In this document: positions 10,651 to 26,434 of the stretch, one piece after another
Numbering within the stretch: the stretch's first letter is position 1
Layout of the letters: each line of letters starts with the position of its first letter
Source of the DNA: Escherichia phage phiA2-1
DNA length: 44,857 nt
Sequence record: OR861626.1
Strand: one strand, 5' to 3'
Position numbers and translations under genes: made by a program
The notes under the pieces: generated by a model
Seen by the model: only the letters and a program-made list of their open reading frames with translations
What the model was told of the DNA's origin: nothing
Database searches by the model: none

Positions 10651-10669
10651 TTAACATGAGGTTTAAAAG

Positions 10670-11140
10670 ATGAACTGGAATTATGTTTTTGAGTATAGAG
10701 AGGGTGTTCTTTATTGGAAGGTAAAACCAGCCATACAATACAATATTGGCGATGTTGCTGGTTTCTTTTGTGAAAAGAGAGGTTACATAATCGTTCAATA
10801 CAGGCGTGTAAAGGTAATGGCCCATAGGGTTGTATGGGAAATGTTTAATGGAAGAATAGCTGATGACATGGAAATTGATCACATTGACCACTCTAGAAAA
10901 AACAACAACATATCAAACCTAAGACTGGTAACGAAGAGTGATAACATGAAAAACAAAAGCATGTACTCATCAAATAAAACTGGCGTTGTCGGGGTTAGTT
11001 ACTGCAAAACAAAGAAAAAATTTATATCAAAGATAGGTAAGAGAATTCTATTAACAACAAGCAATTTTGAAGAGGCTGTAAAAGCGAGAAAAATCGCAGA
11101 GATAGCCCTTAATTATCACAAAAATCACGGGAGTAAATAA
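10670..11140 (+). CDS. HNH homing endonuclease (HNH plus AP2-like DNA-binding region)
   Basis: Motifs HRVVWE, IDHIDH, NLRLV...N..N; AT-rich gene inserted between tape measure and tail protein M. Confidence 0.7.
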   Translation: MNWNYVFEYREGVLYWKVKPAIQYNIGDVAGFFCEKRGYIIVQYRRVKVMAHRVVWEMFNGRIADDMEIDHIDHSRKNNNISNLRLVTKSDNMKNKSMYSSNKTGVVGVSYCKTKKKFISKIGKRILLTTSNFEEAVKARKIAEIALNYHKNHGSK

Positions 11141-11141
11141 T

Positions 11142-11492
11142 ATGGCTCTAGATACGTTTAATTTTTGTACTCAGGTTCAGAGTGGCGGCGGCTCATTTAC
11201 CAACGCAAGCAACGTGAGGAGTGTTTCATTCGGTAATGGCTACACCCAAATTGGAACCGGAGGCTACAGAACTAACAAGCGCACTTACAACATGACCTAC
11301 ACCAACACTAACTGGAAGGAAGTGTTAGACTTCTGTTTTGCGCACATCATTACACCTTTTGCGTGGACCACGCCACAAGGCGATACATCAATGTTTGTTA
11401 TTCAGCAGGATAGCATTAGCGTCACACCACTCAGTAAGGAAGTTCAGACTGTAAATATGCAATTCGTAGAAGTTTTTAGCTCAATGCGTTAA
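11142..11492 (+). CDS. Minor tail protein M (lambda gpM-like)
   Basis: 116-aa ORF; RSVSFGNGYTQ and WTTPQGD resemble lambda M; position before L. Confidence 0.6.
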   Translation: MALDTFNFCTQVQSGGGSFTNASNVRSVSFGNGYTQIGTGGYRTNKRTYNMTYTNTNWKEVLDFCFAHIITPFAWTTPQGDTSMFVIQQDSISVTPLSKEVQTVNMQFVEVFSSMR

Positions 11493-11497
11493 ACTAA

Positions 11498-11519
11498 GCC
11501 CCATTAGGGGCTTTTTTTA
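11498..11519 (+). terminator. Rho-independent terminator
   Basis: AGCCCC-ATTA-GGGGCT plus T7. Confidence 0.55.
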
Positions 11520-11531
11520 TTGGAGAAATAT

Positions 11532-12287
11532 ATGTTAAGTCCAAAGTTTGAAAATCAGTTGCAAAGCCTTTTCCCTGGAGAGATTGTGACTCTAATTCAG
11601 GTTGACGGCACGTCGTTTGGTTCTCGCGTTTACAATTTCCACAATGAGAACATTTCATACACACCTGAAGAAATCATGCTAGCCCAAATGAATGGCGAGC
11701 CACTACCAGAGAAAACCATCACCTTTCGTGGTGAAGAGTATGGCCCCAGACCTTTTGGTATCTCGGGCATCAATATGACCTCTGACGGCAAAGCCAACAA
11801 AGTGACGCTAACGGTGTCAAACGTAGACCAGCGCATTAGCGCATTGATTCGAACATACAACGGACTTGTTAAAGCTAAGGTTACCATCTGGATTACTACG
11901 CGAGATAACATCAATGAAGACGGAAGCATTGCTGATGGGGATTATCGCAGATTCGTTTACTTCATTGAGCGACCTAAGCAGGTTGATTACAAGACGGCAT
12001 CGTTTGAGCTAAGTAGCCCGATGGATATGGATGGTATTTACATTCCAGCAAGACTTGTTCAGTCTGTTTGCTACTGGGCTTCAAGGGGCTGGTATCGCAG
12101 CGGTAATGGTTGTGCTTATGCTGGTAATAGATACTTCAATAAGGATGATGAGCCAGTGTCAGACCCTTCATTGGATTTCTGCGCCGGAACGGTAAATAGC
12201 TGCAAGATTAGGTTTGGTGAGAATAATCAGTTGGATTTCGGTGGCTGCGCTGCAGCAAGTCTTCAGGCTAAAGCCAATCAATCATAA
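11532..12287 (+). CDS. Minor tail protein L (lambda gpL-like)
   Basis: Track ORF from 11520; ATG at 11532 after GGAG; ...TLTVSNV... motif resembling lambda L. Confidence 0.6.
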   Translation: MLSPKFENQLQSLFPGEIVTLIQVDGTSFGSRVYNFHNENISYTPEEIMLAQMNGEPLPEKTITFRGEEYGPRPFGISGINMTSDGKANKVTLTVSNVDQRISALIRTYNGLVKAKVTIWITTRDNINEDGSIADGDYRRFVYFIERPKQVDYKTASFELSSPMDMDGIYIPARLVQSVCYWASRGWYRSGNGCAYAGNRYFNKDDEPVSDPSLDFCAGTVNSCKIRFGENNQLDFGGCAAASLQAKANQS

Positions 12288-12311
12288 AAAAGGCCCCGAA
12301 AGGGGCCAAAA
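12286..12311. terminator. Bidirectional terminator between L (+) and rha-like gene (-)
   Basis: GGCCCC-GAAA-GGGGCC hairpin flanked by A-run and T/A-run. Confidence 0.5.
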
Positions 12312-12809
12312 TTACCATCCAAGAGTTAACTGTGCTTCCTTGTAAAGGTTCTCCATTTCTTCTTTCCGCTGCTTCTTGACCCTCTTCCACTCAGATAGTG
12401 TCTTTCCGCAACTGCTAGCAATCTCAACCTCTGACTTTAACGTTCCGATTAACTCATTGCATTTCTGCATTACTGATTTATTTTCTTCTTTATACTCCTC
12501 TTTAAGAATTCGCTCCATTTCGTTAAAAGCATTAATGTAAGCTTCCTTCCACTTTGCTGCCTCCTTTCCGGTAAAGCCCATTGCTAGGAATGAGAAACCA
12601 TCACGTGTAATGTCATAGCAATCTAACTTCTTGTTTTGCTTGGAAATATAAGATGAGGGCCGAAAATTAGGCTCTCTAAATTCTTCGCTACAATCAAGTC
12701 CTCGAATAGCATCAAGCACGTGCTTGTGCGACTTACCAAACTTTTCTGAAACATCCTTTGATGTGACTGTAATGCGACCATCTTTGCCTAAAGATACTAA
12801 ATCGTTCAT
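12312..12809 (-). CDS. Phage regulatory protein, Rha family (antirepressor-like)
   Basis: Track ORF 12312..12854; likely start ATG 12809 (MNDLVSL...); Rha-type motifs SEKFGKSHKHVLDAIRGL and FLAMGFTGKEAAKWKEAYINAF. Confidence 0.65.
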   Translation of the reverse strand: MNDLVSLGKDGRITVTSKDVSEKFGKSHKHVLDAIRGLDCSEEFREPNFRPSSYISKQNKKLDCYDITRDGFSFLAMGFTGKEAAKWKEAYINAFNEMERILKEEYKEENKSVMQKCNELIGTLKSEVEIASSCGKTLSEWKRVKKQRKEEMENLYKEAQLTLGW

Positions 12810-12853
12810 AATATACCTACCTGGTGAGTTGATTATTTGTTTATGGAGATTCA

Positions 12854-12882
12854 AATATAAAACTCCTAATAGGATTTGTCAA
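12854..12882 (-). promoter_or_regulatory. Sigma70-type promoter for the rha-like gene
   Basis: On minus strand: TTGACA, 17-nt spacer, TATATT, about 45 nt upstream of ATG 12809. Confidence 0.5.
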
Positions 12883-12905
12883 ATCTTAAAATCATAGAGG
12901 TGAAG

Positions 12906-13664
12906 ATGTTAACACCAAAAGTTAAACTGGAAATCTTCCAGCACGCAAAAGAAGTTTACCCGCACGAATGTTGCGGGGTTGTCACGCAGAAAGGTCGCGC
13001 GCAGAAATACCACAGAATCAAGAACGCCAGCAAAGACCCAGAGAATGAATTCATCCTTGATTCAAATGAGTATGCAGACGTTCTCTTTGAGTTGGCTCAC
13101 AACGAGTCAATTGTTTATGTAGTTCACTCTCATACAGGCGATGGAGCCACAACAAGACCAAGCCCAGCGGACATTTGCAGCTGCAATGAGTGCGAGATTC
13201 CTTACGTTATCGTCAGCATTCCGGAAGGAGACATGCGGATCCTTGAACCTTCAACCATGCCACTGATTGGTCGCCCATGGGGTCTTGGTAGCTTTGACTG
13301 CTGGGAGTTGGTAATGGCATTTCACAAGAAATACGGCGTCAAACTGAATGACTACCGCGTTAATTACCCGTGGTGGGAGAAGCGATACAATGAGAATATC
13401 TATGAAGACAACTGGATTAAGGAAGGATTTGAGCTAGTAAAAACTTCAGATATTCCTATTGGCTCAATGATTATGATGCAGGTTCAAAGTGAGGTGACAA
13501 ACCACGCCGGAATCTATATTGGCAACAACAGATTCATTCATCACCTTTATGGTAAAATGAGTTCAGTTGATATCTACTCCGATTACTGGCGAGAGCGCAC
13601 TGTGCGAATCGTTCGCCATAAGGATTTACCAGAGGATGTAATTTATGACCCAGAAACTGATTGA
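12906..13664 (+). CDS. Minor tail protein K (lambda gpK-like)
   Basis: Track ORF from 12876; ATG 12906 after GAGGTG; starts MLTPKVKLEIFQHA; HECCG and HSH motifs as in lambda K. Confidence 0.65.
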   Translation: MLTPKVKLEIFQHAKEVYPHECCGVVTQKGRAQKYHRIKNASKDPENEFILDSNEYADVLFELAHNESIVYVVHSHTGDGATTRPSPADICSCNECEIPYVIVSIPEGDMRILEPSTMPLIGRPWGLGSFDCWELVMAFHKKYGVKLNDYRVNYPWWEKRYNENIYEDNWIKEGFELVKTSDIPIGSMIMMQVQSEVTNHAGIYIGNNRFIHHLYGKMSSVDIYSDYWRERTVRIVRHKDLPEDVIYDPETD

Positions 13665-14217
13665 TATTAAGTTAGGCTTGTCTCTAGGCCGCAAGTTTGG
13701 AAAGATTCACCAGATGGCAGTGAATAGCGTGCCAGAGGCTATGCGAGCGCTTTGCTCTCAGATTCCTGCATTCAAGGAGTTCATGAGCAGCCACGTTGGG
13801 CAGAACACAAGATACGCAGTCTTTGTAGATGGTAAAAATGTGAACGAGCATCAAATCTCTGATTTTAGTGCCGTTCAGGAGATACGCATCTTGCCAATCC
13901 CGCAAGGCCGAAAGTCCGGCGGTTTGTTTCAGACAATTTTAGGTGCAGCGCTTATCACGGTTGGCATCTTCACTGGGCAGATTTATCTTGTTGGTGCTGG
14001 CGTATCTTTGGCAGCAGGTGGTATTTCCCAGCTACTCTCACCGCAGGCAACTGGATTAAAGACCCAGAACAACCAAACAAGCAACAGAGCATCTTACGCA
14101 TTTGGCTCGGCCGTGAACACTGTAGCTGCTGGTTATCCAGTTTGCCTTCCATACGGCTATCGAACTGTTGGCGGGTCTGTATTTAGTGCAGGCAGTTATA
14201 GTGAAGATATTTCTTGA
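13645..14217 (+). CDS. Tail assembly protein I (lambda gpI-like)
   Basis: 190-aa ORF overlapping K stop; Gly-rich hydrophobic C-terminal half; position between K and J. Confidence 0.5.
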   Translation: MTQKLIDIKLGLSLGRKFGKIHQMAVNSVPEAMRALCSQIPAFKEFMSSHVGQNTRYAVFVDGKNVNEHQISDFSAVQEIRILPIPQGRKSGGLFQTILGAALITVGIFTGQIYLVGAGVSLAAGGISQLLSPQATGLKTQNNQTSNRASYAFGSAVNTVAAGYPVCLPYGYRTVGGSVFSAGSYSEDIS

Positions 14218-14274
14218 TAATTAAATTATTCTGCATTACAGTCACCTTAAGATTTACTCTTTTGGTGACTTAAA

Positions 14275-14763
14275 ATGCAAAAATTCGAGAATTACCTTTA
14301 CGAGATTGATGGAAAGCTATACTGGAAGGAGGCGAGAAACAACTCGGCCAAAATAGAGTCAGAGGCTGGATTTATTCATCATTCTGGCTATAGGTATGTT
14401 AAATTGAATGACAAACAGACTTCATCTCACAGGATTCTTTGGTACTTAAGAAATGGATTCAAGATGCCACCTAAAGGCATGGAGATTGACCATATAAATG
14501 GAAACAGGCTTGACAACTCAGCTAGTAACTTACGGATTGTATCTTCATCGGTAAACTCAAAAAACAGGTCAAAAAGGTCAGATAACTCAAGCGGCGTTGC
14601 GGGAGTTGGATTTCATAAGTTAACTGGAACGTGGTGGGCTACGATATCAATAAACAAAAAGAGAAAGCACTTGGGGCTATTCGTTGATTGGTTTGAAGCA
14701 GTGTGCGCCAGAAAGAGCGCTGAGAACTTAAATGGTGAGTACACCTATAGACATGGTAAGTAA
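14275..14763 (+). CDS. HNH homing endonuclease (HNH plus AP2-like region)
   Basis: Motifs HRILWY, IDHINGN, NLRIV...N..N; inserted between I and J; inverted repeat AGTCACC/GGTGACT (14240..14270) just upstream of start. Confidence 0.7.
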   Translation: MQKFENYLYEIDGKLYWKEARNNSAKIESEAGFIHHSGYRYVKLNDKQTSSHRILWYLRNGFKMPPKGMEIDHINGNRLDNSASNLRIVSSSVNSKNRSKRSDNSSGVAGVGFHKLTGTWWATISINKKRKHLGLFVDWFEAVCARKSAENLNGEYTYRHGK

Positions 14764-14769
14764 AATCAG

Positions 14770-14792
14770 AACCCGCCTGGCGCGGGTTTTTT
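14770..14792 (+). terminator. Rho-independent terminator
   Basis: AACCCGC-CTGG-CGCGGGTT plus T-run. Confidence 0.55.
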
Positions 14793-14804
14793 ATTTACTG
14801 TAGA

Positions 14805-17800
14805 ATGGCACAAATGATCAAAACAAACATGAGGCTTTGTGATATGGCTGAAGAGATTAAGATTTATGGTGCCAAGGGTGGTAGCCAAAAGCAGCATCAA
14901 CCAGTGGAGCAGGAAGATAACCTAATTTCACTTAACAAGGTTAAGGTTCTTTTGGCGGTTGCTGACGGTGAGGTGGATCCTAACTTCTCATTGAAGGATT
15001 TATACCTTGCTGACGTTCCGGTACAAAATCAGGATGGTAGCTACAACTATGAAGGTGTTCGCGCTGAGTTCCGTGCTGGCACGCAGTATCAGGACTATAT
15101 CGCCGGGCTTGACGGTGCTAACTCAGAGATTCAGGCATCCAGAGAAATCAAGAACGATACCCCGTACATCATTGCAGTTAACAATACTCAGCTTTCAGCA
15201 ATTCGAGTTAAGCTATTCTGGCCTCGACTGGTTAAGCAAGAAAGCAATGGAGACCTGAACGGAACAACCTGCGAGTATGCAATTGACCTTTCTGTTAATG
15301 GTGGCGCTTACCAGGAATACACTCGCGGAGTTGCTAACGGAAAGACCACTACAGGTTACGACCGAAGCATTCGCGTAAACCTTCCGGCAGAATTTGATAG
15401 CGCGCTTGTTCGCATCCGTAAGATTACGCCGGATTCAACAAGTAGCACCCTGGTTAACGGTATGCAGATTACAACCTATCAGGAAGTAATTGACGCTAAA
15501 TTCCGCTATCCGCTTACGGCTCTGGTTTACGTTGAGTTTGGTTCTGACTTGTTCCCTAACGGCATCCCAACAATCTCAATCAAGAAGAGATGGAAGTTGA
15601 TTCAGGTTCCTACAAACTATAACCCTGAAACCAGAACTTATAGCGGCACATGGAATGGTCTATTCAAGATGGCATGGTCAAACAACCCAGCATGGGTTCT
15701 TTATGACCTAGTAACAAACCGCCGTTACGGACTTGACCAGCGAGAGCTGGGTGTAGAGATTGATAAGTGGGGCCTGTACGAAGCTGCACAATTCTGTGAC
15801 CAGATGGTTCCAGATGGCAAGGGTGGCTTAGAGCCGCGTTACCTTTGCGATATGGTTGTACAGAACAAGGTTGAGGCTTACACGCTAATTCGTGATATCT
15901 GTTCAATCTTTCGCGGCCTGACTTTCTATGACGGCGAAAAGATTGGCATCGTGGTTGATAAGCCTCGCAACCCATCTTACATCTTCACCAATGATAACGT
16001 TGTAAACGGATTGTTCAGTCGCACATTTGCCAGCGATAAAAGTCTTTACACCACGGCAAACGTTCAGTTTGATGATGTAGAGAACAACTATCAGCAGGAT
16101 GTTGAGCCAGTATTTGAGCTTGAGGCTACTCGCAGGTTCGGGTTTAATCCAGTCGACCTTACGGCAATTGGCTGCACTCGCAGAAGTGAAGCAAACAGAC
16201 GCGGCAGATGGCTCCTAAAAACCAACCTGAGAAGCGAAACTATCAGCTTCACTACCGGGTTGGAAGGCATGATTCCGATGATTGGCGAGGTTATTGCAGT
16301 TAATGATGCGGCATGGTCGAGCAACTATCAGTTGAACCTTTCCGGCCGCATTGAATCAGTGCAGGGGCTACAGGTTTTTACACCGTTTAAAGTTGACGCA
16401 GCGCCGGGTGACAGAATTCTTCTTAACAAGCCAGACGGAAGCCCGGAGGCAAGAACTATTGCCAGTGTTTCGGAAGACGGCAGAACAATCAACCTTAACA
16501 CTGCTTTCAGTTTTGTAGCTCAGCCAGACACTGTGTTCGCAATTGATAAGGATAACCTTGCGCTTCAGCAGTATGTTGTGACCGGGATTCAAAAGGCAGA
16601 TACTGACGGCTCTGATTCATTTCAGTACACGATTACTGCGGTGGAGTATGACCCTAACAAGTATGACGAGATTGACTACGGCGTTAATATTGTTGACCGT
16701 CCAACTTCAGTCGTAGAGCCTGATAGATTGTCGCCACCTGAGAATTTAACAGTGTCAAGCTACAGCAAGGTTGTTCAAGGATTATCAGTTGAGACGATGG
16801 TTATCGGGTGGGATAAAGCGCCATACGCTAAAACCTACAATGTTCAGTGGAGAAAAGAGAATGGCAACTGGATTAACGTACCAAGAACAGCTAGCACAGA
16901 GGTTGATATCGAAGGTATTTACGCAGGAATTTATGACGTTAGGGTTCGCAGCGTATCAGATACTGAAAACGTGTCTGCCTGGTCTGGTATTGTAACGGTA
17001 TCGCTAACTGGCAAGATTGGTCGCCCATCGGCACCTACGGTTATCACGGCGTCAACTGATGAAGTATTTGGTATCCGTGTTAAATGGGGATTCCCTGAAG
17101 GCTCTGGCGATACTGCTTACACTGAGCTTCAGCAGGTTCCAGATAATGGTGATGGTACTTACAATCCTGATAATGCAAGTTTGCTTACGTTACTTCCTTA
17201 TCCTGCCTACGAATACTGGCATACGCCAATTCAGCCAGGTAAGGTGATTTGGTATCGCGCAAGATTGATTGACAGAATCGGAAATACCTCTGATTGGTCT
17301 AATTTCGCAAGAGGCATGAGTACTGACGACGCAAACATTATCAATGATTTCATCAAGGTTGATATTGAAGGTTCAGAAGGATTCAAATACCTCGAGCAGA
17401 ATGCGATTCAAAAGAATCAGGACATTCAGAATCAAGCTGAGGCAATTATCGAGAACGCACTGGCTAATGATGGCGATGTTCGCAGAATGACAAAGGAGAA
17501 CGGCAAGCGTAAGGCTGAATATGTTCAGGCTGTGAATCTCATAGCCGATGAAACTCAGGCGCGCGTAGAGGCTCTAACGGCCCTTAAGGCGCAGATAGAT
17601 GATGAAGTTGTAGCATCGATTACAGAAGTTCAGACTGCATTAGCCACAGAGACAGAAGCAAGGACTACTGCAGACACGACTCTATCAGCAAGACTTGGTG
17701 AAAATGAGGCGGCTTTAAACCAGAAGCTGGACGCATTCTCTAATGCCACATCGACTGGTGTGCAGTACGGAATTAGTCTTGGCCTGAAATACAATGGACA

Positions 17801-19390: not shown

Positions 19391-19565
19391 TCTTGTTAAA
19401 ACAATATCCAGCTGGTAAAACCGAATAAAGATTTTGATTTACCTCTCCATTGCTGTATTCACAACCTCTAATTGTAACTGAGTAGTCACTGATAAGAACT
19501 ATAGTTCTTTCACCGCCTGAACAACCAGCTAAAATCATTGCAGTGATAACGATTAATTTTTTCAT
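19380..19565 (-). CDS. Small outer-membrane lipoprotein, Cor-like superinfection-exclusion candidate
   Basis: 61 aa; lipoprotein signal MKKLIVITAMILAGC (lipobox LAGC); last gene of a minus-strand operon. Confidence 0.45.
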   Translation of the reverse strand: MKKLIVITAMILAGCSGGERTIVLISDYSVTIRGCEYSNGEVNQNLYSVLPAGYCFNKKAH

Positions 19566-19566
19566 C

Positions 19567-19671
19567 TTAGAACCCTTTAAAGTTGCTAGCCAGCATCAGA
19601 AGCCATACGAAGAAACCAGTAGCTGCTACACCGAAGATTGCAGAGATTACGTTAGTAGTTAAGTTAGTCAT
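19567..19671 (-). CDS. Small hydrophobic membrane peptide (34 aa), not in ORF track
   Basis: Hand translation MTNLTTNVISAIFGVAATGFFVWLLMLASNFKGF; AAGGAA RBS; stop 1 nt before the lipoprotein ATG. Confidence 0.3.
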   Translation of the reverse strand: MTNLTTNVISAIFGVAATGFFVWLLMLASNFKGF

Positions 19672-19689
19672 TTTGTATTCCTTAGTAAG

Positions 19690-19755
19690 TGTGTTTCGTT
19701 TCGATGGAAAGATAATACCGCATCCTTGCGATAAGTGTTTAGCAATTAGTGCTAT
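19690..19755 (-). promoter_or_regulatory. Promoter-like cassette (minus orientation)
   Basis: Minus strand reads AATAGCACTAATTGCTAAA, 22 nt, TATTAT, then CATCGAAACGAAACACAC leader before the small peptide gene. Confidence 0.5.
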
Positions 19756-20024
19756 TAGTGAATATCCTCACAGCCAGGAATGGACTTAACATTGTAATGC
19801 CGATAAGCGAATATCAAGTTAAGAGCCTGCTCGACCGTGCATTTAAGGGCGCCAGAGATAATAAATGAAGACTCAGTGATGTGATTTATTAACTCATTTC
19901 TGACAGGGTCGTCATCTGCTAGTAACTCTGCGCGCTTAACAAAAAGAGCGTTGTTTACCAGGATTGTCACAACCTTTTCATTGAGCTCTTTCTTCGCTTT
20001 TGCAATCTCTTTCTCGTAGTTCAT
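19755..20024 (-). CDS. Hypothetical protein
   Basis: 89-aa ORF; stop codon lies inside the downstream cassette box. Confidence 0.35.
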   Translation of the reverse strand: MNYEKEIAKAKKELNEKVVTILVNNALFVKRAELLADDDPVRNELINHITESSFIISGALKCTVEQALNLIFAYRHYNVKSIPGCEDIH

Positions 20025-20166
20025 CTTATACCGCCTTGTTTTCGATTTGCATTACGCTATTAACTGACATCATAACATTCCGATTCTGCTGCTGAGTAGT
20101 GGTTACTACATGCTGCATTTTATTGCAGTCACTTTAAATGACCACATCTTATTGTGGTCATTAGTG

Positions 20167-20832
20167 CTACTTATCTTTAAGTAGCAACTTGATATCAATT
20201 CCTAGATTATTCTCAATCAATCCAGTCAGTGCACCTACCTTTTCCTTAAGTGCGAAGCACTGTGTTTCATACTTGAATCTCAACTCCATCTCATCAGAGC
20301 GACTTGACCAGCACTGCCGAGCCTCGCACGCTAGCTCATCAATCTTCTTGTCAAGTTCCTTATCTGACAGGGTGATTTCAGTAATTCGCTGCTCAGCTAC
20401 GATTCTCTGGATCAAGTGAGCATTCTGCGCTTGCAGGTATCCATTCTTCATTCTTTCCTCTTTAAGTTCATCAATGCTTACCATCTGACTGATTACTTCC
20501 GCTTGCTTGTTGATGGTGCTTTGCATTTCTTTAAGCTTAGCAAGCACTGCGCGACGAACGAACTTTGATTCTCTCATCCCAATCAAAAGCATCTGTTCCA
20601 TATTGAGCACTGGTGAGTTGATTGACTTTCTATAACCTCCTCTACCCTCACTCTTGATTACGAAACTTTCGTAGTCAAACTCAAACCCTTCAAGCTCATC
20701 CTCTATTCTCTCAACAAAGTCATTGTGTCGAACATTGGACTCCCCAGCGATCAACCTCGCTGGGTTGATAACTTCATTTAAAAACTGATAACTATTCATT
20801 TTTACGTCTTCATTAAGTAATGCTAAGTTCAT
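20167..20832 (-). CDS. Rha-family-like regulatory protein with coiled-coil C-terminal half (putative)
   Basis: Track ORF to 20856; likely start ATG 20832; SNVRHNDFVERIEDEL and MLLIGMRESKFVRRAVLAKL resemble Rha motifs. Confidence 0.4.
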   Translation of the reverse strand: MNLALLNEDVKMNSYQFLNEVINPARLIAGESNVRHNDFVERIEDELEGFEFDYESFVIKSEGRGGYRKSINSPVLNMEQMLLIGMRESKFVRRAVLAKLKEMQSTINKQAEVISQMVSIDELKEERMKNGYLQAQNAHLIQRIVAEQRITEITLSDKELDKKIDELACEARQCWSSRSDEMELRFKYETQCFALKEKVGALTGLIENNLGIDIKLLLKDK

Positions 20833-20856
20833 TTTCGTCTCTCTTTTGTTTTTCAT

Positions 20857-21467
20857 TCCTAAGATTTGAGGAGTTAACTAAGTTCTTTTCCTCAATTTGA
20901 GGAGGAGTTGACAGCACCATTGCCGCCACGCGCCTAAATATACCTAAAGATAGCCAGTTGTCTTTAGCAAATCGTGCTATTTATCGACAATTTCACCATA
21001 AATCACAGTTACACGTAACCGATGTAACTCGATGTATACAATCTCATCCGCGGGAAATGATATACGCGCTGTTACGCCAATTTACGCATTGGTTACATTA
21101 AAATATCTATATATATCAACCTTTTACTCTTATTATTATTATTATATATATTACTGTGTATATCATGTAACTACTTCTATAGAGTGTTCCGGTTATAATT
21201 TTAATATCATGTGGATTTATACAGTATTGCGCGGCAGCTATACCAATGCACCCTCAGCGAGAAACGGCATACACGATATACACGATGTTTACATTGAGCT
21301 ATGGCTGGCTTGAGATGCCAAAAAGCGTAACTAGTGCCAATGCCTACACGAAATTACAAAGATTCACGCGTAAACTTAAATCAACGATTTGCAAAACCAA
21401 TTGGACTGGTTACGGTGCTGAATATATAGTTACCTCATCGAAAGCAATCAACCAGAGAGATATATAA
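20857..21467. promoter_or_regulatory. Large AT-rich divergent control region with (TTA)n and (TA)n tracts
   Basis: 611 nt without a credible ORF; (TTA)5 near 21127..21145; TATATATAT; palindrome CCTCAAATTGAGG; separates minus-strand block from plus-strand early block. Confidence 0.4.
20920..20981 (-). promoter_or_regulatory. Promoter-like cassette (minus orientation) for the 20832 gene
   Basis: Minus strand AATAGCACGATTTGCTAAAG, 22 nt, TATATT. Confidence 0.45.
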
Positions 21468-21662
21468 ATGACCTACTACATTATCAAAGAGAAAAACAAT
21501 GCACTGTTCGGCGACTGCTACTTTGGCGGCCAGGCTGGATACACCACAGATAAGAGTGAGGCCGACAGGTTCGAGACAAAGGAAGAGGCCAAAGGACTGC
21601 TGACAGGATACTTCACTGAAGAAGATTTGAAGGCAATCAAGATTGTTAAAATTAAGGTTTGA
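21468..21662 (+). CDS. Hypothetical protein (first gene of plus-strand early block)
   Basis: 64-aa ORF after GAGAGA RBS-like sequence. Confidence 0.35.
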   Translation: MTYYIIKEKNNALFGDCYFGGQAGYTTDKSEADRFETKEEAKGLLTGYFTEEDLKAIKIVKIKV

Positions 21663-21665
21663 GCC

Positions 21666-22637
21666 ATGACATTTAAAGTTTACACGAACGACGAACTAAC
21701 CAACGAGGCTTATCACGAAGAGCAAGACCATATCTCTGGCTCATCACTGGCTGAGATTCTCGCAACCTCACCAGCTAAATGGAAATTCAAGCAGCGCAAT
21801 AACTCCAGCGCAGCACTTAAGTTTGGCACTCTGAGTCATACGATGATGCTAGAGCGCGAGGTTTTCGATTCAACCTACATGCGAGCCACTGACTTTGACG
21901 AAGTTGAAGGATTGATCACAAGCCAAACAGCTTTATCAGCAGCACTTAAGAAAGTTGGTGTTTCTGGTACGTCAGGAGAGGGCTATAACGAGCTCGTGGA
22001 GATGATGTATAAGTCTGGCGAGGATTGGCCTGTTAAATGGCTAATTGAGCAGCAGGAGAGCGCTGAGGCATTGATTAGTGGCAAGGAGTTGGTTACTGCG
22101 AAAGATTACGACAAGGTAATCTCAATGCGCGAGGTTCTGACCAATATTCCAGCTTACGATTCGGTCATTAATTCACCAACAGCACAGAAAGAGTTATCCA
22201 TCTTTGGTGAGATTTTAGGTTGTGGCGTAAAGGTTAGGCTTGATCACGTTGATGTTGTTGATGGCGTTGTCTACATTACTGACTATAAAACGACGGCAGA
22301 CGCAAGCCCTCGATGGTTTGGTAAGTCGGCTTATGACCATGGATACCTTTGCAAGATGGCACTTCAACGCGATTTGTTTGTGAATGCATTCAGCGAGAAG
22401 CGCAAGGTTGTGGTTCGCCTCCTGGCGCAGGAGAAAACTGAGCCTTACTTACCTATGTGCTACACGCTTACAGATGAGCAGCTTCGCATTGGGCGCATTC
22501 AGTATCTTGAAGCACTGGCTACATACAAACAGTGCAAGGAACTTGATGTGTGGCCTGGTTACAGTAATGGGATTACAGAGCAAGATTTAATGATTCCTGA
22601 GTGGGTAAGTAAAAAGTATCAAGAATTGCTGAAATAG
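21666..22637 (+). CDS. PD-(D/E)XK-family exonuclease (recombination exonuclease, putative)
   Basis: RLDHVDVVDGVVYITDYKT contains a D...D/E-x-K nuclease signature; adjacent to Erf-family gene. Confidence 0.55.
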   Translation: MTFKVYTNDELTNEAYHEEQDHISGSSLAEILATSPAKWKFKQRNNSSAALKFGTLSHTMMLEREVFDSTYMRATDFDEVEGLITSQTALSAALKKVGVSGTSGEGYNELVEMMYKSGEDWPVKWLIEQQESAEALISGKELVTAKDYDKVISMREVLTNIPAYDSVINSPTAQKELSIFGEILGCGVKVRLDHVDVVDGVVYITDYKTTADASPRWFGKSAYDHGYLCKMALQRDLFVNAFSEKRKVVVRLLAQEKTEPYLPMCYTLTDEQLRIGRIQYLEALATYKQCKELDVWPGYSNGITEQDLMIPEWVSKKYQELLK

Positions 22638-22700
22638 CACTAATTGCTAAAGAAAAAGTTAACTGGTGGGGTATCATTACCTCACCAAAACGAAAGAGAG
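22634..22700 (+). promoter_or_regulatory. Promoter-like cassette
   Basis: ATAGCACTAATTGCTAAAG, 22 nt, TATCAT, then CCAAAACGAAAGAGAG leader; box overlaps upstream stop TAG. Confidence 0.5.
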
Positions 22701-22707
22701 ATAGGTA

Positions 22708-23358
22708 ATGAAGACTTCAGAGCAAAACAAGCAAGTATTGAAGGCGTTATTTGAGGCTAAATCAAAGTTTGCCAAGGCTGAAAAATCAAAGCAGAACTCG
22801 CACCTAAAGAACAAGTACGCCACTTTAGATGATGTTTTAGCGGCGGTTGAGCCGGGCCTGGCGGATAGCGGATTGGTAATGTTTCAGTCAATGGTTGATG
22901 ATGATGTTAGCTCTCGTATTAAGGTTGAGACTACCGTATACCATGCCGAGTCTGGAGAATGGGTTAGCTTCCTGACAATCGTCCCAATCAGCAAGCAAGA
23001 TGCTCAAGGTTATGGCTCATCACTCACATACGCTCGCCGTTACGCAATTACAGCGGCATTAGGATTAAGCCAAGCAGATGATGATGGTCAGCTGGCAGTT
23101 AAAGGAATTAACTCATTTAAGAAGGATTTGGCTAAGTGCAATACGCTTGATGACCTTCGTGATGTTTACAAAGAAGCGAAACAGTCACTTGATTCAGCAG
23201 GCTGGCTAGTGCTCGAGCCTCACATCATCGAGAGGAAAGCTGAGATTCAGGCTAATGCAACTAACGGTTTTAATCCTGCAAAACCTAAGCAAGTTGCACA
23301 AAAGAATGTTCAAGAAGAAAAAGTTGAAGTACAATCTCAAGAAATCGATACATTCTAA
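22708..23358 (+). CDS. erf: Erf-family single-strand annealing protein
   Basis: 216 aa; GSSLTYARRYAITAALG resembles the Erf signature; sits between exonuclease and SSB. Confidence 0.7.
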   Translation: MKTSEQNKQVLKALFEAKSKFAKAEKSKQNSHLKNKYATLDDVLAAVEPGLADSGLVMFQSMVDDDVSSRIKVETTVYHAESGEWVSFLTIVPISKQDAQGYGSSLTYARRYAITAALGLSQADDDGQLAVKGINSFKKDLAKCNTLDDLRDVYKEAKQSLDSAGWLVLEPHIIERKAEIQANATNGFNPAKPKQVAQKNVQEEKVEVQSQEIDTF

Positions 23359-23398
23359 TTTAACGGGGCTGCGGCCCCAACATTAAGAGAGAAAGAAA

Positions 23399-23830
23399 AT
23401 GAGTCACGTAATCACTGGTGTTATCCGTCGCGCTCCGTTCACTAAAGAAGGTCAGAATGCCAATGGCACCTGGAAGATGTACGCAGTTGATTTAAACGAG
23501 CGATACAAGGATAAAGATGGACAGGCGCATTATAGCAACTATCGCGCCGTGTTCTTCGCCAAAGAATCAATGCTTGCTTGGTACGATGAGGCTTTCCAGG
23601 AGGGGAAGGTTGTTAGCGTAAGTTGTGAAACATTGGCTGTAGACGTTCGTGATAAAGATGGTAAAACTTATGTAACAATCAACATGAACAACCCGCGACT
23701 TGAGTTTAGTCAGCGTGGTGAAGGTGTCCAGCAACAACAGCAACAGCAAAAACCACAACAGCAACAGCAACAACAGCAGCAGCGTCAACCTCAACAGCAG
23801 AAGAACTTCGAGGATGATATCCCCTTCTGA
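23399..23830 (+). CDS. ssb: Single-stranded DNA-binding protein with Gln-rich linker
   Basis: 143 aa; OB-fold-like N-terminus; poly-Q linker; acidic C-terminal tail ending DDIPF. Confidence 0.75.
   Translation: MSHVITGVIRRAPFTKEGQNANGTWKMYAVDLNERYKDKDGQAHYSNYRAVFFAKESMLAWYDEAFQEGKVVSVSCETLAVDVRDKDGKTYVTINMNNPRLEFSQRGEGVQQQQQQQKPQQQQQQQQQRQPQQQKNFEDDIPF
23720..23800 (+). repeat. (CAR)n trinucleotide repeat encoding the poly-Q linker of SSB
   Basis: CAGCAACAACAGCAACAGCAA...CAACAGCAGCAGCGTCAACCTCAACAGCAG. Confidence 0.6.
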
Positions 23831-23839
23831 TAAAAGACA

Positions 23840-23864
23840 AAGCCCCTTTCGGGGGCTTTTTTAT
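23840..23864. terminator. Bidirectional terminator between ssb (+) and tail fiber gene (-)
   Basis: AAGCCCC-TTTC-GGGGGCTT plus T-run. Confidence 0.55.
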
Positions 23865-24949
23865 GGCATATTTACTCGAATTGAAACGAAAGAGTCAGAA
23901 GGAATATCTATAGGATCGCCGTTACTAAAACCTTCAACTTTATTTCTTGCAAAGGACGGGGATGAATCGTGAGTTCGATGGTAAGTTTTTACTACTATTG
24001 ATCCATTAGACTCAACCTCATAATCTAGCCATATTCTTGGCTGCTTGTTTGCATCTAAAGGTATCTCAAAGCCACCATTAACACCACCCCAGGAGGCATC
24101 CGAATTTAGACCAAGCACACCTGATACCCTATAAACACCAGTGGAAACTCTCTCCACTGTAGCTCCCTTTGATTGCTCGTTTGTTTCAAAACCACCATCA
24201 CTGAAGACTTTAATTATAGGAGAAGCCTTTTTAAGGAAACCGTTAGAGTCTACGGTTACGTTTTGTGAGTGGTAAAGTTCCATGAACCCAAGGCCGTTAT
24301 TATAAGTTGAGTTAGCTATATAGCATCTCCTTTCCGCATAAGAAACGGCAAGCTGAGCCCACTCTCTAGCAGTTGGTCCAGGCATATCCATAAATACAAC
24401 ATAATCTAGGTAGTATAAGTTGGTTGGACTAATAGGTTCATATCCATACGTCCAGGTTGTTTTGGGCTTGTCGGTTCGCATTATCCTTGATCCAAAAACT
24501 AGTTGAACTTGCCCAGGTTCATAGCCATGATCAATGACAGCAGAAGTTCCAAGCCCGAGGTTGTTACGCGCTTCAGGTGCTGTACTAGCTCCTGTTCCTC
24601 CGTTCTCTAATTTTACATTCCCATCATCACCACCGCTCACATAATTATTTGACTGATAAAATCTAAGCGTCTCGGCTACGTCCTGTGCCAAACCCTGAAC
24701 TGTAATACCATCATGAAGAAGAATGGCGTAACCAGTTCCAGCAGCAACGGTTTCAGAATTAGGGTTGTAAACATTAATCTGCGTGTCGCTGATGATTTCA
24801 GAGATAGTGTAAATCTTCACTGGTTCAGTCTTGAAAACAATAGTGGCGCCAACACGAATCAGCGTAAGCGGAGCCATCCAGGTAGTCCCAACACCAGTTA
24901 CAGTGCCGTTAGCTGCCAGGCTGGCTGTTCCAGCGTCATAAATTGCCAT
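23861..24949 (-). CDS. Tail fiber protein (putative receptor-binding fiber)
   Basis: Track ORF to 24979; likely start ATG 24949 after GGAG (MAIYDAGTASLAANGTVTG...); GGTGASTAPEARNNLGLG fiber-type motif. Confidence 0.5.
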   Translation of the reverse strand: MAIYDAGTASLAANGTVTGVGTTWMAPLTLIRVGATIVFKTEPVKIYTISEIISDTQINVYNPNSETVAAGTGYAILLHDGITVQGLAQDVAETLRFYQSNNYVSGGDDGNVKLENGGTGASTAPEARNNLGLGTSAVIDHGYEPGQVQLVFGSRIMRTDKPKTTWTYGYEPISPTNLYYLDYVVFMDMPGPTAREWAQLAVSYAERRCYIANSTYNNGLGFMELYHSQNVTVDSNGFLKKASPIIKVFSDGGFETNEQSKGATVERVSTGVYRVSGVLGLNSDASWGGVNGGFEIPLDANKQPRIWLDYEVESNGSIVVKTYHRTHDSSPSFARNKVEGFSNGDPIDIPSDSFVSIRVNMP

Positions 24950-25012
24950 TGTAAGGTCTCCATTTGTAAAATAGCACAATTTGCTAAAACTAATTCTACC
25001 ATCTTTAATGCA

Positions 25013-25036
25013 ATAAAAAACCTCCCGAAGGAGGTT
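25013..25036 (-). terminator. Rho-independent terminator (minus strand) after the primase-like gene
   Basis: ACCTCC-CGAA-GGAGGT hairpin with A-run on plus strand (U-run on minus). Confidence 0.45.
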
Positions 25037-25958
25037 AGTTTATTAAGTCGTTGGCTTTGTACACTTTCTTGCGTATGCCTGTTTTAAATGACTTACCGTC
25101 ATTGGGAATCACCACATCAACATTGCGATCGTCAGCAACAGCAAGGATATCGATATCATAATCATGGCAAGCAATTCTGAACTTCCTTGACTTGTCGCGG
25201 TGTATAACCATCTCCATATTGTAACAGGAGAAAGCAACAAACACCTCGCGACCCCCAGTAGCAAGGTGAACACGTACGCCATCAATATAATTGTCAACAA
25301 CATAAGTATAACTATTGTCCTGCCTAGAACCAATGACAGCAACAGAATCACGAGTATAATCACCAGCAAGGAACTTAACATTTGAATCCTCATCAATAAA
25401 CATTACGTTACAGAACTCATCACCAAGCCCATCCTCATAAACCATGGAGCAAGGCACGGCATGAATCATTGAACCATCTTTAGCTATACCAACATCAAAA
25501 CCAGATTCAGAGTATATACCCTCATATGTCGTGAGTGGACTTGAGTCAACTCGCTGAGTTCTCCCCATGACCTCCAAAACTTTTTCATGGTCTACTTGAG
25601 CGCCCATCTTATAACGATGAGTTCTGGATGCTTGCTTGTTTGCTTTAACTATAACCTCAATTGGTGTTAAGTTCAGCCAGTCACCAAGCAAATTTACTGA
25701 ATCGGCGAAGGACGATCCAGTGCACTTCATGACCCATCCTATACCGGAGTCACTTCCGCATTTCGAACAAACTGCCGCGCCATTTCCTTTTTCACTGCCT
25801 ATTTCGTCGGTAAATCTGAATCTGTCAGTGCCAAAGCAGTATGGGCATGGTCCGTGCTTCTTACTTAGGTGTCTATCATTCCAACCAAGTTCCTTTGCAT
25901 AAAATGATTTCCACAATCCGGCCATCTTAGGTATAACTTCATTCTTATCGTAATTCAT
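25035..25958 (-). CDS. DNA primase-like protein (zinc-ribbon plus TOPRIM-like region)
   Basis: CPYC...CSKCG zinc-binding motif; acidic AVADDRNVD segment; located in replication block. Confidence 0.45.
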   Translation of the reverse strand: MNYDKNEVIPKMAGLWKSFYAKELGWNDRHLSKKHGPCPYCFGTDRFRFTDEIGSEKGNGAAVCSKCGSDSGIGWVMKCTGSSFADSVNLLGDWLNLTPIEVIVKANKQASRTHRYKMGAQVDHEKVLEVMGRTQRVDSSPLTTYEGIYSESGFDVGIAKDGSMIHAVPCSMVYEDGLGDEFCNVMFIDEDSNVKFLAGDYTRDSVAVIGSRQDNSYTYVVDNYIDGVRVHLATGGREVFVAFSCYNMEMVIHRDKSRKFRIACHDYDIDILAVADDRNVDVVIPNDGKSFKTGIRKKVYKANDLIN

Positions 25959-26434
25959 TTGCTTAACCCGTGATTTTCGTGAAAGTTGTATTTTCTCTCT
26001 GCTTCAATTCTTACTTTATACGCCTGCTCTGGAGTATCGAAGTTCCCAAGGTGTAGCTGCTTGCCGTCAACCTTGATGTGAGCCTTAAATTTTCCGTGAT
26101 TTAGCTTTACCACTCCACAATAACCAGTTGTTGATAAAACGCTAAGATTGCAATTTCTTGAGTTACCTTGATTTGTTGTTACTCTTAGGTTTTCTATTCT
26201 GTTATCTAATTTGTTATGGTTTATATGATCAATGTAGTCGCCATTTTGAAGTTCTCCATTAAACATCTCCCACACAACTCTATGTACATAAGTCCTAAGG
26301 CCATTAACAGACACTTTGTAATAGCCAGATGTAGATAGTGAGTTGCACTCATCGCCAACCTTAACACGTCTTGCAGTGCTAATCTTCCAATGCAATTTGC
26401 CATCTACATAGTAAAAATAATCATGCCAGTTCAT
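25955..26434 (-). CDS. HNH homing endonuclease (HNH plus AP2-like region)
   Basis: Motifs HRVVWEMFNG, IDHINHN, NLRVT; third paralog of the same family. Confidence 0.7.
   Translation of the reverse strand: MNWHDYFYYVDGKLHWKISTARRVKVGDECNSLSTSGYYKVSVNGLRTYVHRVVWEMFNGELQNGDYIDHINHNKLDNRIENLRVTTNQGNSRNCNLSVLSTTGYCGVVKLNHGKFKAHIKVDGKQLHLGNFDTPEQAYKVRIEAERKYNFHENHGLSK

What the first reader, a model, noticed from the sequence alone, without database searches (positions are those of the whole stretch)
10670..26434. Three paralogous free-standing HNH-AP2 homing endonuclease genes at operon junctions
The ORFs at 10670..11140, 14275..14763 and 25955..26434 (minus) share the same architecture and motifs (HR..W, IDHI, NLR). 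They sit precisely between conserved genes (tape measure|M, I|J, HTH|primase) and are visibly more AT-rich than their neighbours. This is typical of mobile homing endonucleases that could mediate marker exclusion in co-infections. Two are preceded by hairpins overlapping their translation start region.
Basis: partly seen in the sequence, partly recalled or inferred. Interest (0 to 1): 0.5.

Follow-up and report, generated by a model that had tools for sequence, protein, structure and literature searches.

The report
Three mobile HNH-AP2 homing endonuclease genes
A T1-like (Rtp-type) E. coli phage carries three related selfish nuclease genes wedged between essential tail and replication genes; comparison with relatives shows they move between phages and drag neighbouring sequence with them, which is real but well-known, ordinary phage biology.

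Summary
ORFs 10670-11140(+), 14275-14763(+) and 25955-26434(-) are intact paralogs, 35-40% identical. Each has a Pfam HNH_3 nuclease domain and a C-terminal AP2-fold DNA-binding domain, and each sits between tape-measure|M, I|J or regulator|primase. All three are more AT-rich than their neighbours.

The homing-endonuclease interpretation is supported by comparative evidence:
- Each gene is absent from most relatives, which have clean empty sites.
- The three genes assort independently among phages.
- HNH1 and HNH3 are 97-100% identical between phages whose flanks are only 62-88% identical.
- Recombination breakpoints sit at the inserts. The first ~320 nt of the window's primase are 100% identical to HNH3-carrying phages, while the rest resembles HNH3-lacking phages. 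TR1 (+) and CY1 (-) are 100% identical on one side of the insertion point and 50-78% on the other.

The hairpin claim is only partly right. HNH2 has a strong, conserved hairpin over its ribosome-binding site and AUG. HNH3's hairpin is an ordinary terminator, and HNH1's start-region hairpin is not significant.

These genes are already annotated as homing/HNH endonucleases in GenBank, and the class is published (Magnani 2004; Lee 2007; Barth 2023). Cleavage activity is untested. Interest is low.

The parts
10670..11140 (+). HNH1: free-standing HNH(HNN)-AP2 endonuclease gene, 156 aa, between the tape-measure gene and tail gene M
   Evidence: ORF. Pfam HNH_3 E 2.8e-20. GC 34.8%, 0.8th percentile. 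100% identical to IME253, 94% aa to TR1, 93.6% to IME542, then <=50%.
10599..11141 (+). Site-1 insert: everything between the tape-measure stop and the M ATG. It replaces a 30-nt spacer (GC hairpin plus AAGGA RBS) found in HNH-minus phages. The RBS of M (GGGAG) lies inside the 3' end of HNH1, with a 1-nt gap
   Evidence: Alignment A2 with ZL19, BEK1-1 and 12210I (minus) and IME542 and JeanPiccard (plus). Annotations.
10609..10637 (+). Hairpin in the HNH1 5' leader (AAGCCAAA/TTTGGCTT core), 33 nt upstream of the ATG. It overlaps an extended -10-like TGCTACAAT at 10633-10641 (TGCTATAAT in IME542 and JeanPiccard)
   Evidence: Fold -11.2 kcal/mol, z -2.7. Conserved across two HNH lineages at this site. 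The promoter reading is inference from sequence only.
14275..14763 (+). HNH2: free-standing HNH-AP2 endonuclease gene, 162 aa, between tail genes I and J
   Evidence: ORF. Pfam HNH_3 E 1.1e-13. Model pLDDT 91.0 matches I-HmuI and AP2 folds. dN/dS 0.03 against the Sd1 ortholog. Lineage IME253/ZL19/Rao1/Sd1.
14218..14769 (+). Site-2 insert (~546 nt net) between the gene I stop codon and the conserved pre-J terminator
   Evidence: Alignment A3 with Rtp, BEK2 and JeanPiccard (minus) and Sd1 (plus).
14232..14279 (+). RNA hairpin that pairs the likely SD (GGUGA, 14264-14268) and the AUG (14275-14277) of HNH2. A promoter-like TTGATA-17-TACAGT (14214-14242) would start transcription inside it
   Evidence: dG -20.1 kcal/mol, z -6.8. 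The Sd1 ortholog folds at -25.7, z -6.75, with pair-preserving or pair-adding changes. Promoter-like match 9/12 only, so this is inference.
14194..14217 (+). Last 24 nt of gene I carrying HNH2-linked substitutions: 100% identical to distant Sd1 (+) but 67-75% to HNH-minus alleles. Candidate target-site immunity changes or a short co-converted tract
14768..14790 (+). Terminator-like hairpin before J, present in both HNH-plus and HNH-minus alleles. It is the right boundary of the site-2 insert. From about 14800 onward the window is 100% identical to HNH-minus Rtp
25955..26434 (-). HNH3: free-standing HNH-AP2 endonuclease gene, 159 aa, between the transcriptional regulator and primase genes. Its stop codon overlaps the primase start (ATGA)
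   Evidence: ORF. Pfam HNH_3 E 3.6e-18. Model pLDDT 91.6 matches I-HmuI plus AtERF1, TEM1 and WRI1 AP2. 9 phage records at 95-99% aa identity, all others <60%.
26450..26480 (-). Intrinsic terminator after the regulator gene (9-bp stem plus T7). It is conserved in the HNH-minus IME253 allele and is the upstream boundary of the site-3 insert
   Evidence: (dG -15.2, z -6.5).
25635..25958 (-). Co-conversion tract: the first ~320 nt of the primase gene are 100% identical to HNH3-carrying TR1 and AugustePiccard. 25735-25958 is specific to HNH-plus phages (52-74% to CY1). 25635-25734 is a conserved island shared with CY1 and is the likely crossover zone. Below 25635 the primase resembles HNH-minus CY1 and IME253 (80-98%) and is only 46-80% identical to TR1 and AugustePiccard (50-nt windows)
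   Evidence: TR1 against CY1 comparison.
21666..23358 (+). Phage-encoded recombination genes (exonuclease VIII-like 21666-22637; Erf-like annealing protein 22708-23358) that could repair a nuclease-made break from an HNH-plus template
   Evidence: ORFs. Annotation of the colinear IME253 genes gp67 and gp68. Any role in homing is inferred.

Best explanation
The three ORFs are free-standing homing endonuclease genes of the phage HNH(HNN)-AP2 class. Each encodes an N-terminal beta-hairpin region, an I-HmuI-like His-Me-finger nuclease and a C-terminal AP2-fold DNA-binding domain.

Each is a separate, site-specific lineage lodged in an intergenic spacer next to an essential gene. In a cell co-infected with a related phage that lacks the gene, the enzyme is expected to cut or nick the empty allele near the insertion site. 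The break would then be repaired by recombination from the HNH-carrying genome, possibly using the phage's own exonuclease VIII/Erf genes. That copies the endonuclease gene together with a stretch of flanking sequence (intronless homing with co-conversion, which produces marker exclusion).

Shown here:
- domain architecture and intact catalytic residues
- presence/absence polymorphism with clean empty sites
- independent assortment of the three genes
- near-identity of the genes across divergent backgrounds
- recombination breakpoints at the inserts
- strong purifying selection on HNH2

Inferred:
- nuclease activity and the target sequences
- cut versus nick
- expression control: an RBS/AUG-sequestering hairpin for HNH2, a possible extended -10 promoter for HNH1, and translational coupling of HNH3 to primase
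For: Domains: HNH_3 in all three. Profile hits to I-HmuI (E 3.5e-9) and plant AP2 domains (6e-8, 2e-5). Models with pLDDT 91-92 match 1u3e and 1gcc/7et4/7wq5. D-H...N...N...N is invariant across 51 homologs.

Polymorphism: empty sites in ZL19, BEK1-1 and 12210I (site 1), Rtp, BEK2 and JeanPiccard (site 2), and CY1 and IME253 (site 3). The HNH-carrying alleles are a minority at each site.

Horizontal spread: HNH1 is 97% identical to IME542 while flanks are 76-88%. HNH3 is 98.5-98.8% identical to AugustePiccard and TR1 while distal primase is 62-75% and the regulator 78-87%.

Breakpoints: the window is 100% identical to TR1 and AugustePiccard from 25635 to ~26535 and then drops abruptly. The pattern against HNH-minus CY1 and IME253 is the reverse. 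TR1(+) and CY1(-) are 100% identical up to the insertion point and 50-78% beyond it. The window is 100% identical to Rtp(-) from the site-2 terminator into J, but only 60-96% in gene I. The window is 99.8% identical to ZL19(-) until ~10100, then 74-94% up to the insert and 62-74% in M.

Selection: HNH2 against Sd1 gives dN/dS 0.03.

Precedent: free-standing T4 endonucleases, co-conversion, marker exclusion and RBS-sequestering hairpins (PMC2988022). The HNH-AP2 'IPA-HNH' HEG class, found near essential genes and at boundaries of exchange (PMC10448857).
Against: - No biochemical or genetic test of cleavage, and no target site identified.
- HNH1 and HNH3 lineages show too few substitutions to demonstrate purifying selection (dN/dS 0.2-1.2 on 6-14 differences).
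- HNH2 and its Sd1 ortholog are about as diverged as their flanks (dS saturated). That pair therefore does not show recent transfer and is compatible with long residence plus loss elsewhere.
- Breakpoints next to a gene could also arise from ordinary homologous recombination at module boundaries.
- HNH2's GC is not a genome outlier (15th percentile).
Confidence: 0.85

Rival explanations
1. Inactive or decaying relics. The genes once homed but are now passengers that move only through ordinary homologous recombination between phage modules. The breakpoints reflect module boundaries rather than nuclease-made breaks.
For: No activity data exist. Within-lineage dN/dS is 0.86 for HNH1, and 0.33 and 1.24 for HNH3 (window against AugustePiccard and against TR1), though on only 6-14 differences. 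Lee et al. 2007 describe progressive degeneration of HNN-AP2 genes in Xanthomonas phages (PMC2248197).
Against: All three ORFs are full length with every invariant catalytic and structural residue intact. HNH2 is under strong purifying selection (dN/dS 0.03). HNH1 and HNH3 are near-identical across divergent genomes, which implies very recent spread. The breakpoints lie exactly at the inserts in three independent comparisons.
Confidence: 0.08
2. Domesticated genes with a function for the phage. Examples would be AP2-mediated transcriptional regulation of the downstream tail or primase genes, a replication or recombination initiator, or a terminase-associated HNH packaging factor. They would be inherited vertically and lost repeatedly in relatives.
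For: Downstream essential genes depend on them for translation signals: the RBS of M lies inside HNH1, and the primase ATG overlaps the HNH3 stop. AP2 domains have been co-opted as transcription factors elsewhere (Magnani 2004, cited in PMC10448857). HNH2 is conserved under purifying selection between two subfamilies.
Against: Most close relatives lack each gene and are viable isolates. Identity patterns require horizontal transfer rather than vertical descent. None of the genes is near the terminase genes, which lie at about 42.0-44.1 kb in the window by colinearity with IME253. The Pfam family is HNH_3 (I-HmuI-like), not a cysteine-containing HNH of the type Lee et al. 2007 separate from the HNN-AP2 genes; that the packaging-associated HNH proteins belong to that other type is my own knowledge, not tested here.
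Confidence: 0.04
3. Competition or defence nucleases rather than homing elements. They would cut rival phages, satellites or host DNA to exclude competitors, without necessarily copying themselves into the cut site.
For: HEG-derived nucleases are used in phage-satellite conflicts in ICP1 (PMC10448857). The marker-exclusion phenotype overlaps with homing (PMC2988022).
Against: Each lineage is tied to one genomic site and is flanked by co-converted sequence. That is the signature of self-copying into a homologous locus, not of pure interference.
Confidence: 0.03

Closest known systems
Phage HNH(HNN)-AP2 homing endonucleases (Magnani, Sjolander & Hake 2004; 'IPA-HNH' HEGs of Barth, Dunham & Seed 2023, PMC10448857; HNN-AP2 genes of Xanthomonas phages Xp10/OP1/Xop411, Lee et al. 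2007, PMC2248197)
   Same: Same architecture: N-terminal HNH and C-terminal AP2. Same motif boxes (HR..W, DH, DNR, NLR, N..N, no Cys dyads). Also free-standing, multi-copy per genome, next to essential structural and replication genes, and sitting at boundaries of genetic exchange. Lee et al. already list T1 and Rtp as carrying multiple copies.
   Different: Nothing fundamental. Here each lineage is strictly site-specific with clean empty alleles, whereas Lee et al. inferred sequence-independent, dispersed insertion. Clade relationship to the ICP1 genes was not tested.
I-HmuI (PDB 1u3e), the intron-encoded HNH nicking homing endonuclease of Bacillus phage SPO1
   Same: It is the best sequence and structure match for residues ~30-120 (E 3.5e-9; Foldseek top hit). 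Same Pfam HNH_3 family and same DH...N...N catalytic core.
   Different: I-HmuI is intron-encoded and has a different C-terminal DNA-binding region (helical and helix-turn-helix modules; my own recollection, not tested here) rather than an AP2 domain. Whether the window's enzymes nick one strand as I-HmuI does is unknown.
Free-standing T4-type endonucleases (seg and mob genes; 'intronless homing', SegF/SegG/MobE; review PMC2988022)
   Same: Intergenic genes between conserved genes. They spread in mixed infection with co-conversion of flanks and marker exclusion. Translation is controlled by hairpins that sequester the RBS, with promoters placed inside the hairpin. The HNH2 leader has this layout.
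   Different: Different phage family (T1/Rtp-like siphovirus). Seg enzymes are GIY-YIG. The mob HNH enzymes have a distinct C-terminal region that the review does not identify; whether it differs from AP2 was not tested. No experimental crosses exist for the Rtp-like genes.

Membership tests
Pfam HNH_3 (PF13392) / His-Me finger nucleases | Score above the curated gathering cut-off | tested here: met
   72.1, 51.0 and 65.4 bits against a cut-off of 24.8.
Pfam HNH_3 (PF13392) / His-Me finger nucleases | Catalytic beta-beta-alpha-metal core with DH general base/ligand and downstream Asn residues intact | tested here: met
   D70-H71, N83, N92 and N95 (HNH1 numbering) are invariant among the three paralogs and among 51 homologs. 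They align to the DH...N...N of I-HmuI. The models place them in a strand-strand-helix unit. The assignment of catalytic roles rests on published I-HmuI work recalled from memory.
AP2/ERF DNA-binding domain (PF00847) | Score above Pfam's gathering cut-off | tested here: not met
   18.4 bits (HNH1) and 16.0 bits (HNH3), no hit for HNH2, against a cut-off of 33.3.
AP2/ERF DNA-binding domain (PF00847) | Three-stranded antiparallel sheet packed on one helix, homologous to plant AP2/ERF domains | tested here: met
   Profile of 51 sequences: WRI1 E 6e-8, TEM1 1.9e-5, ERF096 0.02. 9 of 50 homologs have precomputed PF00847. HNH3 model against 1gcc: rmsd 0.8 A over 49 columns, 33% identity, probability 1.0. 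HNH2 model against 7et4/7wq5/1gcc: probability 0.99-1.0. HNH1 was not modelled; it is inferred from the alignment.
Free-standing homing endonuclease gene | Own ORF outside any intron or intein, with flanking genes intact | tested here: met
   Intergenic position. TMP, M, I, J, primase and regulator ORFs are all full length.
Free-standing homing endonuclease gene | Presence/absence polymorphism at the same locus among related genomes | tested here: met
Free-standing homing endonuclease gene | Evidence of horizontal spread with co-conversion of flanking sequence | tested here: met
   Clear for site 3. One-sided boundaries at sites 2 and 1. HNH1 is 97% identical against flanks of 76-88%.
Free-standing homing endonuclease gene | Site-specific cleavage or nicking of the endonuclease-lacking allele, with immunity of the carrier allele | not testable with these tools
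   Only candidate immunity substitutions were seen, in the last 24 nt of gene I.
Free-standing homing endonuclease gene | Super-Mendelian inheritance in mixed infection | not testable with these tools
   Requires phage crosses.
Terminase-associated HNH packaging factor (HK97 gp74 type) | Gene adjacent to the terminase/portal genes | tested here: not met
   Terminase genes map to about 42.0-44.1 kb of the window by colinearity with IME253 gp34 and gp35. The HNH genes are at 10.7, 14.3 and 26.0 kb.

The most novel reading that the evidence does not exclude
The HNH2 leader may be a T4-style translational switch operating in a T1/Rtp-like siphovirus. Read-through tail-operon transcripts would fold the conserved 14232-14279 hairpin and hide the SD and AUG. 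Transcripts starting from the promoter-like element inside the hairpin (TTGATA-17-TACAGT, predicted start ~14249) would lack the 5' arm and be translated. Separately, placing the downstream genes' translation signals inside the endonuclease genes (RBS of M inside HNH1; HNH3 stop overlapping the primase ATG) could make precise loss costly, which would stabilise the selfish genes. Because HNH2 abuts the host-specificity gene J, it could also drive exchange of host-range modules.
Probability: 0.3. Interest if true: 0.35.

Novelty: already known. Interest (0 to 1): 0.17.

Why it matters
It matters little for discovery. The genes are already annotated as homing/HNH endonucleases in deposited genomes, and the class and its population behaviour are published.

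The practical value is threefold:
- This genome gives an unusually clean natural example of a co-conversion tract, namely a chimeric primase whose 5' 320 nt travel with HNH3.
- TR1 and CY1 appear to be a near-isogenic plus/minus pair suitable for direct homing crosses, judged on the ~1 kb regulator-helicase stretch compared here.
- Phylogenies or engineering of Rtp-like phages should mask the regions around 10.1-11.4 kb, 13.7-14.8 kb and 25.6-26.5 kb, because endonuclease-linked gene conversion scrambles their history.

Tried and rejected
1. I first assumed the window is phage IME253, because the tail region is 100% identical. Rejected: the replication region is only 76-84% identical and IME253 lacks HNH3. 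The window is a different mosaic genome.

2. AP2 by Pfam threshold fails. It was rescued only by profile-to-PDB search and structure comparison.

3. The HNH1 hairpin over its start codon was rejected: -6.1 kcal/mol, z -1.0, and not conserved in IME542 or JeanPiccard.

4. The HNH3 hairpin as a translational element was rejected. It is the regulator gene's intrinsic terminator and is also present in the empty IME253 allele.

5. HNH2 in Sd1 as evidence of recent transfer was rejected. Synonymous sites are saturated (dS 2.3) and the gene is about as diverged as its flanks. That comparison shows purifying selection, not recent mobility.

6. A search for a fourth paralog in the window found none (tblastn).

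7. A terminase-cofactor role was rejected on position.

8. dN/dS for HNH1 and HNH3 was uninformative, with too few differences.

9. The sigma-70 scan does not exceed shuffled expectation (13 found against 8.7 +/- 2.8), so the promoter calls are weak.

Full report
**Observation**

The three ORFs are present exactly as described: 10670-11140 (+, 156 aa), 14275-14763 (+, 162 aa) and 25955-26434 (-, 159 aa). They align over their whole length at 35-40% identity. D70 H71 ... N83 L84 R85 ... N92 N95. tblastn finds no fourth copy in the window.

Pfam gives HNH_3 for all three, well above the curated cut-off (72, 51 and 65 bits against 24.8). PHROG 99 'HNH endonuclease' matches each end to end.

**The AP2 half of the name**

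AP2 needed more work. At Pfam's threshold it fails: 18.4 and 16.0 bits, and nothing for HNH2, against 33.3. Other evidence supports it:
- 9 of 50 full-length homologs from the large protein collection carry a precomputed AP2 hit next to HNH_3.
- A 51-sequence profile hits I-HmuI with positions 30-120 (E 3.5e-9). It hits the plant AP2 proteins WRI1 (6e-8), TEM1 (2e-5) and ERF096 (0.02) with positions ~108-156.
- AlphaFold models of HNH3 and HNH2 are confident (pLDDT 91.6 and 91.0). Both show a C-terminal three-strand sheet plus helix.
- Foldseek returns I-HmuI first and then AP2 domains. For HNH3, AtERF1 (1gcc) superposes at 0.8 A over 49 columns.

So HNH-AP2 is correct for HNH3 and HNH2 by structure, and for HNH1 by alignment.

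**Composition and hairpins**

GC is 34.8, 40.3 and 37.5%, against 44.0% for the window and 42-48% for the immediate neighbours. Among same-size windows these values fall at the 0.8th, 15th and 4.8th percentile. The claim is true relative to the neighbours, but HNH2 is not a genome outlier.

| Gene | Hairpin | Verdict |
|---|---|---|
| HNH2 | 14232-14279, -20 kcal/mol, z -6.8. The inner 3' arm contains the likely SD (GGUGA) and the outer 3' arm contains the AUG. The Sd1 ortholog, 80% identical in the ORF, keeps and strengthens it (-25.7, z -6.75) through pair-preserving or pair-adding changes. | Overlaps the start; significant and conserved |
| HNH3 | Canonical terminator (9-bp stem plus T7) ending 17 nt before the ATG. 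The empty IME253 allele also has it. | Belongs to the upstream regulator gene |
| HNH1 | A hairpin 33 nt upstream of the ATG. The AU-rich fold over the SD is not significant (z -1.0) and not conserved. | Start-region hairpin rejected |

**Where the window comes from**

The tail region is 100% identical to Escherichia phage vB_EcoS-IME253 (Drexlerviridae, Braunvirinae, Rtpvirus). Elsewhere identity is 70-88%, and IME253 lacks HNH3. The window is therefore a different mosaic Rtp-like phage. Within the phage collection, no record carries all three lineages.

**Insertion sites**

- **Site 1.** HNH-minus phages (ZL19, BEK1-1, 12210I) have a 30-nt spacer between the tape-measure stop and the M ATG. 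It contains a GGGGCTTCGGCCCC hairpin and an AAGGA RBS. HNH-plus phages have 543 nt there instead. The RBS of M then lies inside the 3' end of HNH1.
- **Site 2.** The insert (net +546 nt) lies between the gene I stop and a terminator hairpin that is kept in both allele types.
- **Site 3.** The insert lies between the regulator's terminator and the primase ATG. The HNH3 stop overlaps the primase start (ATGA).

**Distribution**

HNH-carrying alleles are a minority at each site. About 10 of 114 matching records carry one at site 1, 6 of 104 at site 2, and 9 records hold the HNH3 lineage.

Each protein forms a discrete lineage tied to its site, with a gap to the next homologs (call numbers in brackets):

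| Gene | Closest relatives (aa identity) | Next homologs |
|---|---|---|
| HNH1 [42] | 94-100% in IME253, TR1, IME542 | <=50% |
| HNH2 [43] | 89-100% in IME253, ZL19, Rao1, Sd1 | <49% |
| HNH3 [40] | 95-99% in nine records | <60% |

The three genes assort independently: IME253 has 1+2, TR1 and IME542 have 1+3, ZL19 has 2 without 1, and JeanPiccard lacks 2. In JeanPiccard, ACG-M12 and phiEB49 the TMP|M site holds a different lineage at 47-48% aa identity. It shares the first ~44 nt of the leader.

**Footprints of mobility**

HNH1 is 97% identical to IME542 at the nucleotide level, while the flanks are 76-88%. HNH3 is 98.5-98.8% identical to AugustePiccard and TR1. The distal primase is 62-75% and the regulator 78-87%.

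At 50-nt resolution the window is 100% identical to TR1 and AugustePiccard from 25635 through HNH3 to about 26535, and then drops abruptly. Against HNH-minus CY1 the pattern reverses:
- 80-98% below 25635
- 100% in a shared island at 25635-25734
- 52-74% in 25735-25935

The window's primase is therefore a chimera. Its 5' ~320 nt arrived with HNH3, and the likely crossover lies in the conserved island.

TR1 (+) and CY1 (-) are 100% identical through helicase and regulator up to the insertion point, and 50-78% identical across the primase. At site 2 the window is 100% identical to HNH-minus Rtp from the terminator into J, but only 60-96% in gene I. The last 24 nt of gene I carry substitutions shared with distant Sd1 (+) and absent from empty alleles. 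At site 1 the window is 99.8% identical to ZL19 (-) until ~10100. Identity then falls to 74-94% up to the insert and 62-74% in M until ~11400.

These patterns require horizontal transfer of the genes with adjacent sequence, and they place recombination boundaries at the inserts.

**Function maintained?**

The catalytic DH...N...N residues are invariant in all three paralogs and in 51 homologs. HNH2 against Sd1 gives dN/dS 0.03. HNH1 and HNH3 lineages have only 6-14 differences, so their ratios (0.2-1.2) say nothing.

**Mechanism**

The best-supported reading is intronless homing, as defined for T4 seg and mob genes. It involves expression in a mixed infection, a cut or nick of the empty allele, and recombinational repair from the carrier genome with co-conversion and marker exclusion (review PMC2988022). 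The phage has its own exonuclease VIII-like and Erf-like genes at 21666-23358 that could do the repair (inferred).

The HNH2 leader resembles the T4 arrangement in which a hairpin hides the RBS on read-through transcripts and a promoter inside the hairpin yields translatable mRNA. A promoter-like TTGATA-17-TACAGT sits at 14214-14242. It is only a 9/12 match, and the scan as a whole is not above shuffled expectation, so this is a hypothesis. The HNH1 leader contains TGCTACAAT (TGCTATAAT in two relatives), an extended -10-like element. This is inference only.

**Comparison with the known**

The architecture and behaviour match published classes:
- HNH-AP2 endonucleases (Magnani et al. 2004, as cited).
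- HNN-AP2 genes in Xanthomonas siphophages. That paper already notes multiple copies in T1 and Rtp (PMC2248197).
- 'IPA-HNH' HEGs, which cluster by essential genes and mark boundaries of exchange (PMC10448857).
- The BASEL paper, which notes homing-endonuclease infestation and gene conversion in E. coli phages (PMC8594841).

GenBank and RefSeq already label the identical or near-identical genes as homing or HNH endonucleases.

**Verdict**

The thing itself is already known. Interest is low (0.17). The residual value lies in the clean co-conversion example, the TR1/CY1 pair for experiments, and the conserved HNH2 hairpin.

Noticed in passing
whole window; e.g. 2927-23864 versus 24650-44856: The window is not any deposited genome in the phage collection. 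It is 94-100% identical to IME253 across the structural region but only 70-88% elsewhere, with several segments lacking any IME253 match. It is a mosaic Rtp-like phage, and the only one seen here with all three HNH lineages.
   Followed up: partly
window 12292-12882 (minus strand): A Rha-like regulator gene (12312-12854, GC 39%) sits on the opposite strand inside the tail operon, between L and K. It has its own strong sigma-70-like promoter (TTGACA-17-TATATT, 12882-12854, 11/12) and terminator (12307-12292). It is present in IME253 and ZL19 but absent from BEK1-1, IME542, JeanPiccard and 12210I, where L and K are adjacent. It looks like a separate moron-like insert.
   Followed up: partly
window 10599-10645; L004 and L005 equivalents: The TMP|M junction is an insertion hot spot used by two HNH lineages that are only 47-48% identical at the protein level (IME253/TR1/IME542 type and JeanPiccard/ACG-M12/phiEB49 type). 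They share the first ~44 nt of leader, including the hairpin and the TGCTA(T/C)AAT element. IME542's first ~45 coding nt resemble JeanPiccard's, which hints at recombination between the two endonuclease genes.
   Followed up: partly
L012 (TR1) versus L013 (CY1): TR1 and CY1, both isolated from fermentation broth in China, are 100% identical through helicase and regulator up to the HNH3 insertion point. Beyond it they diverge to 50-78%. Within the ~1 kb compared on the identical side they look like a natural near-isogenic plus/minus pair; the rest of the two genomes was not compared.
   Followed up: yes
window 23399-23830 (+): This ORF has a long poly-glutamine tract and a C-terminal ...FEDDIPF tail, which resembles the acidic tip of single-stranded-DNA-binding proteins (own knowledge). 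It lies just after the Erf-like gene.
   Followed up: no
window 23861-24979 (-): The lateral tail fibre gene is 372 aa here, against a 2904-nt gene in IME253. Only its 5' ~330 nt match IME253 (window 24650-24979), so the distal receptor-binding part has been swapped or truncated.
   Followed up: no
window 38150-39120 (+): Two ORFs (182 aa and 140 aa) lie mostly in a stretch (about 38254-39100) with no nucleotide match to IME253. Their function was not examined.
   Followed up: no
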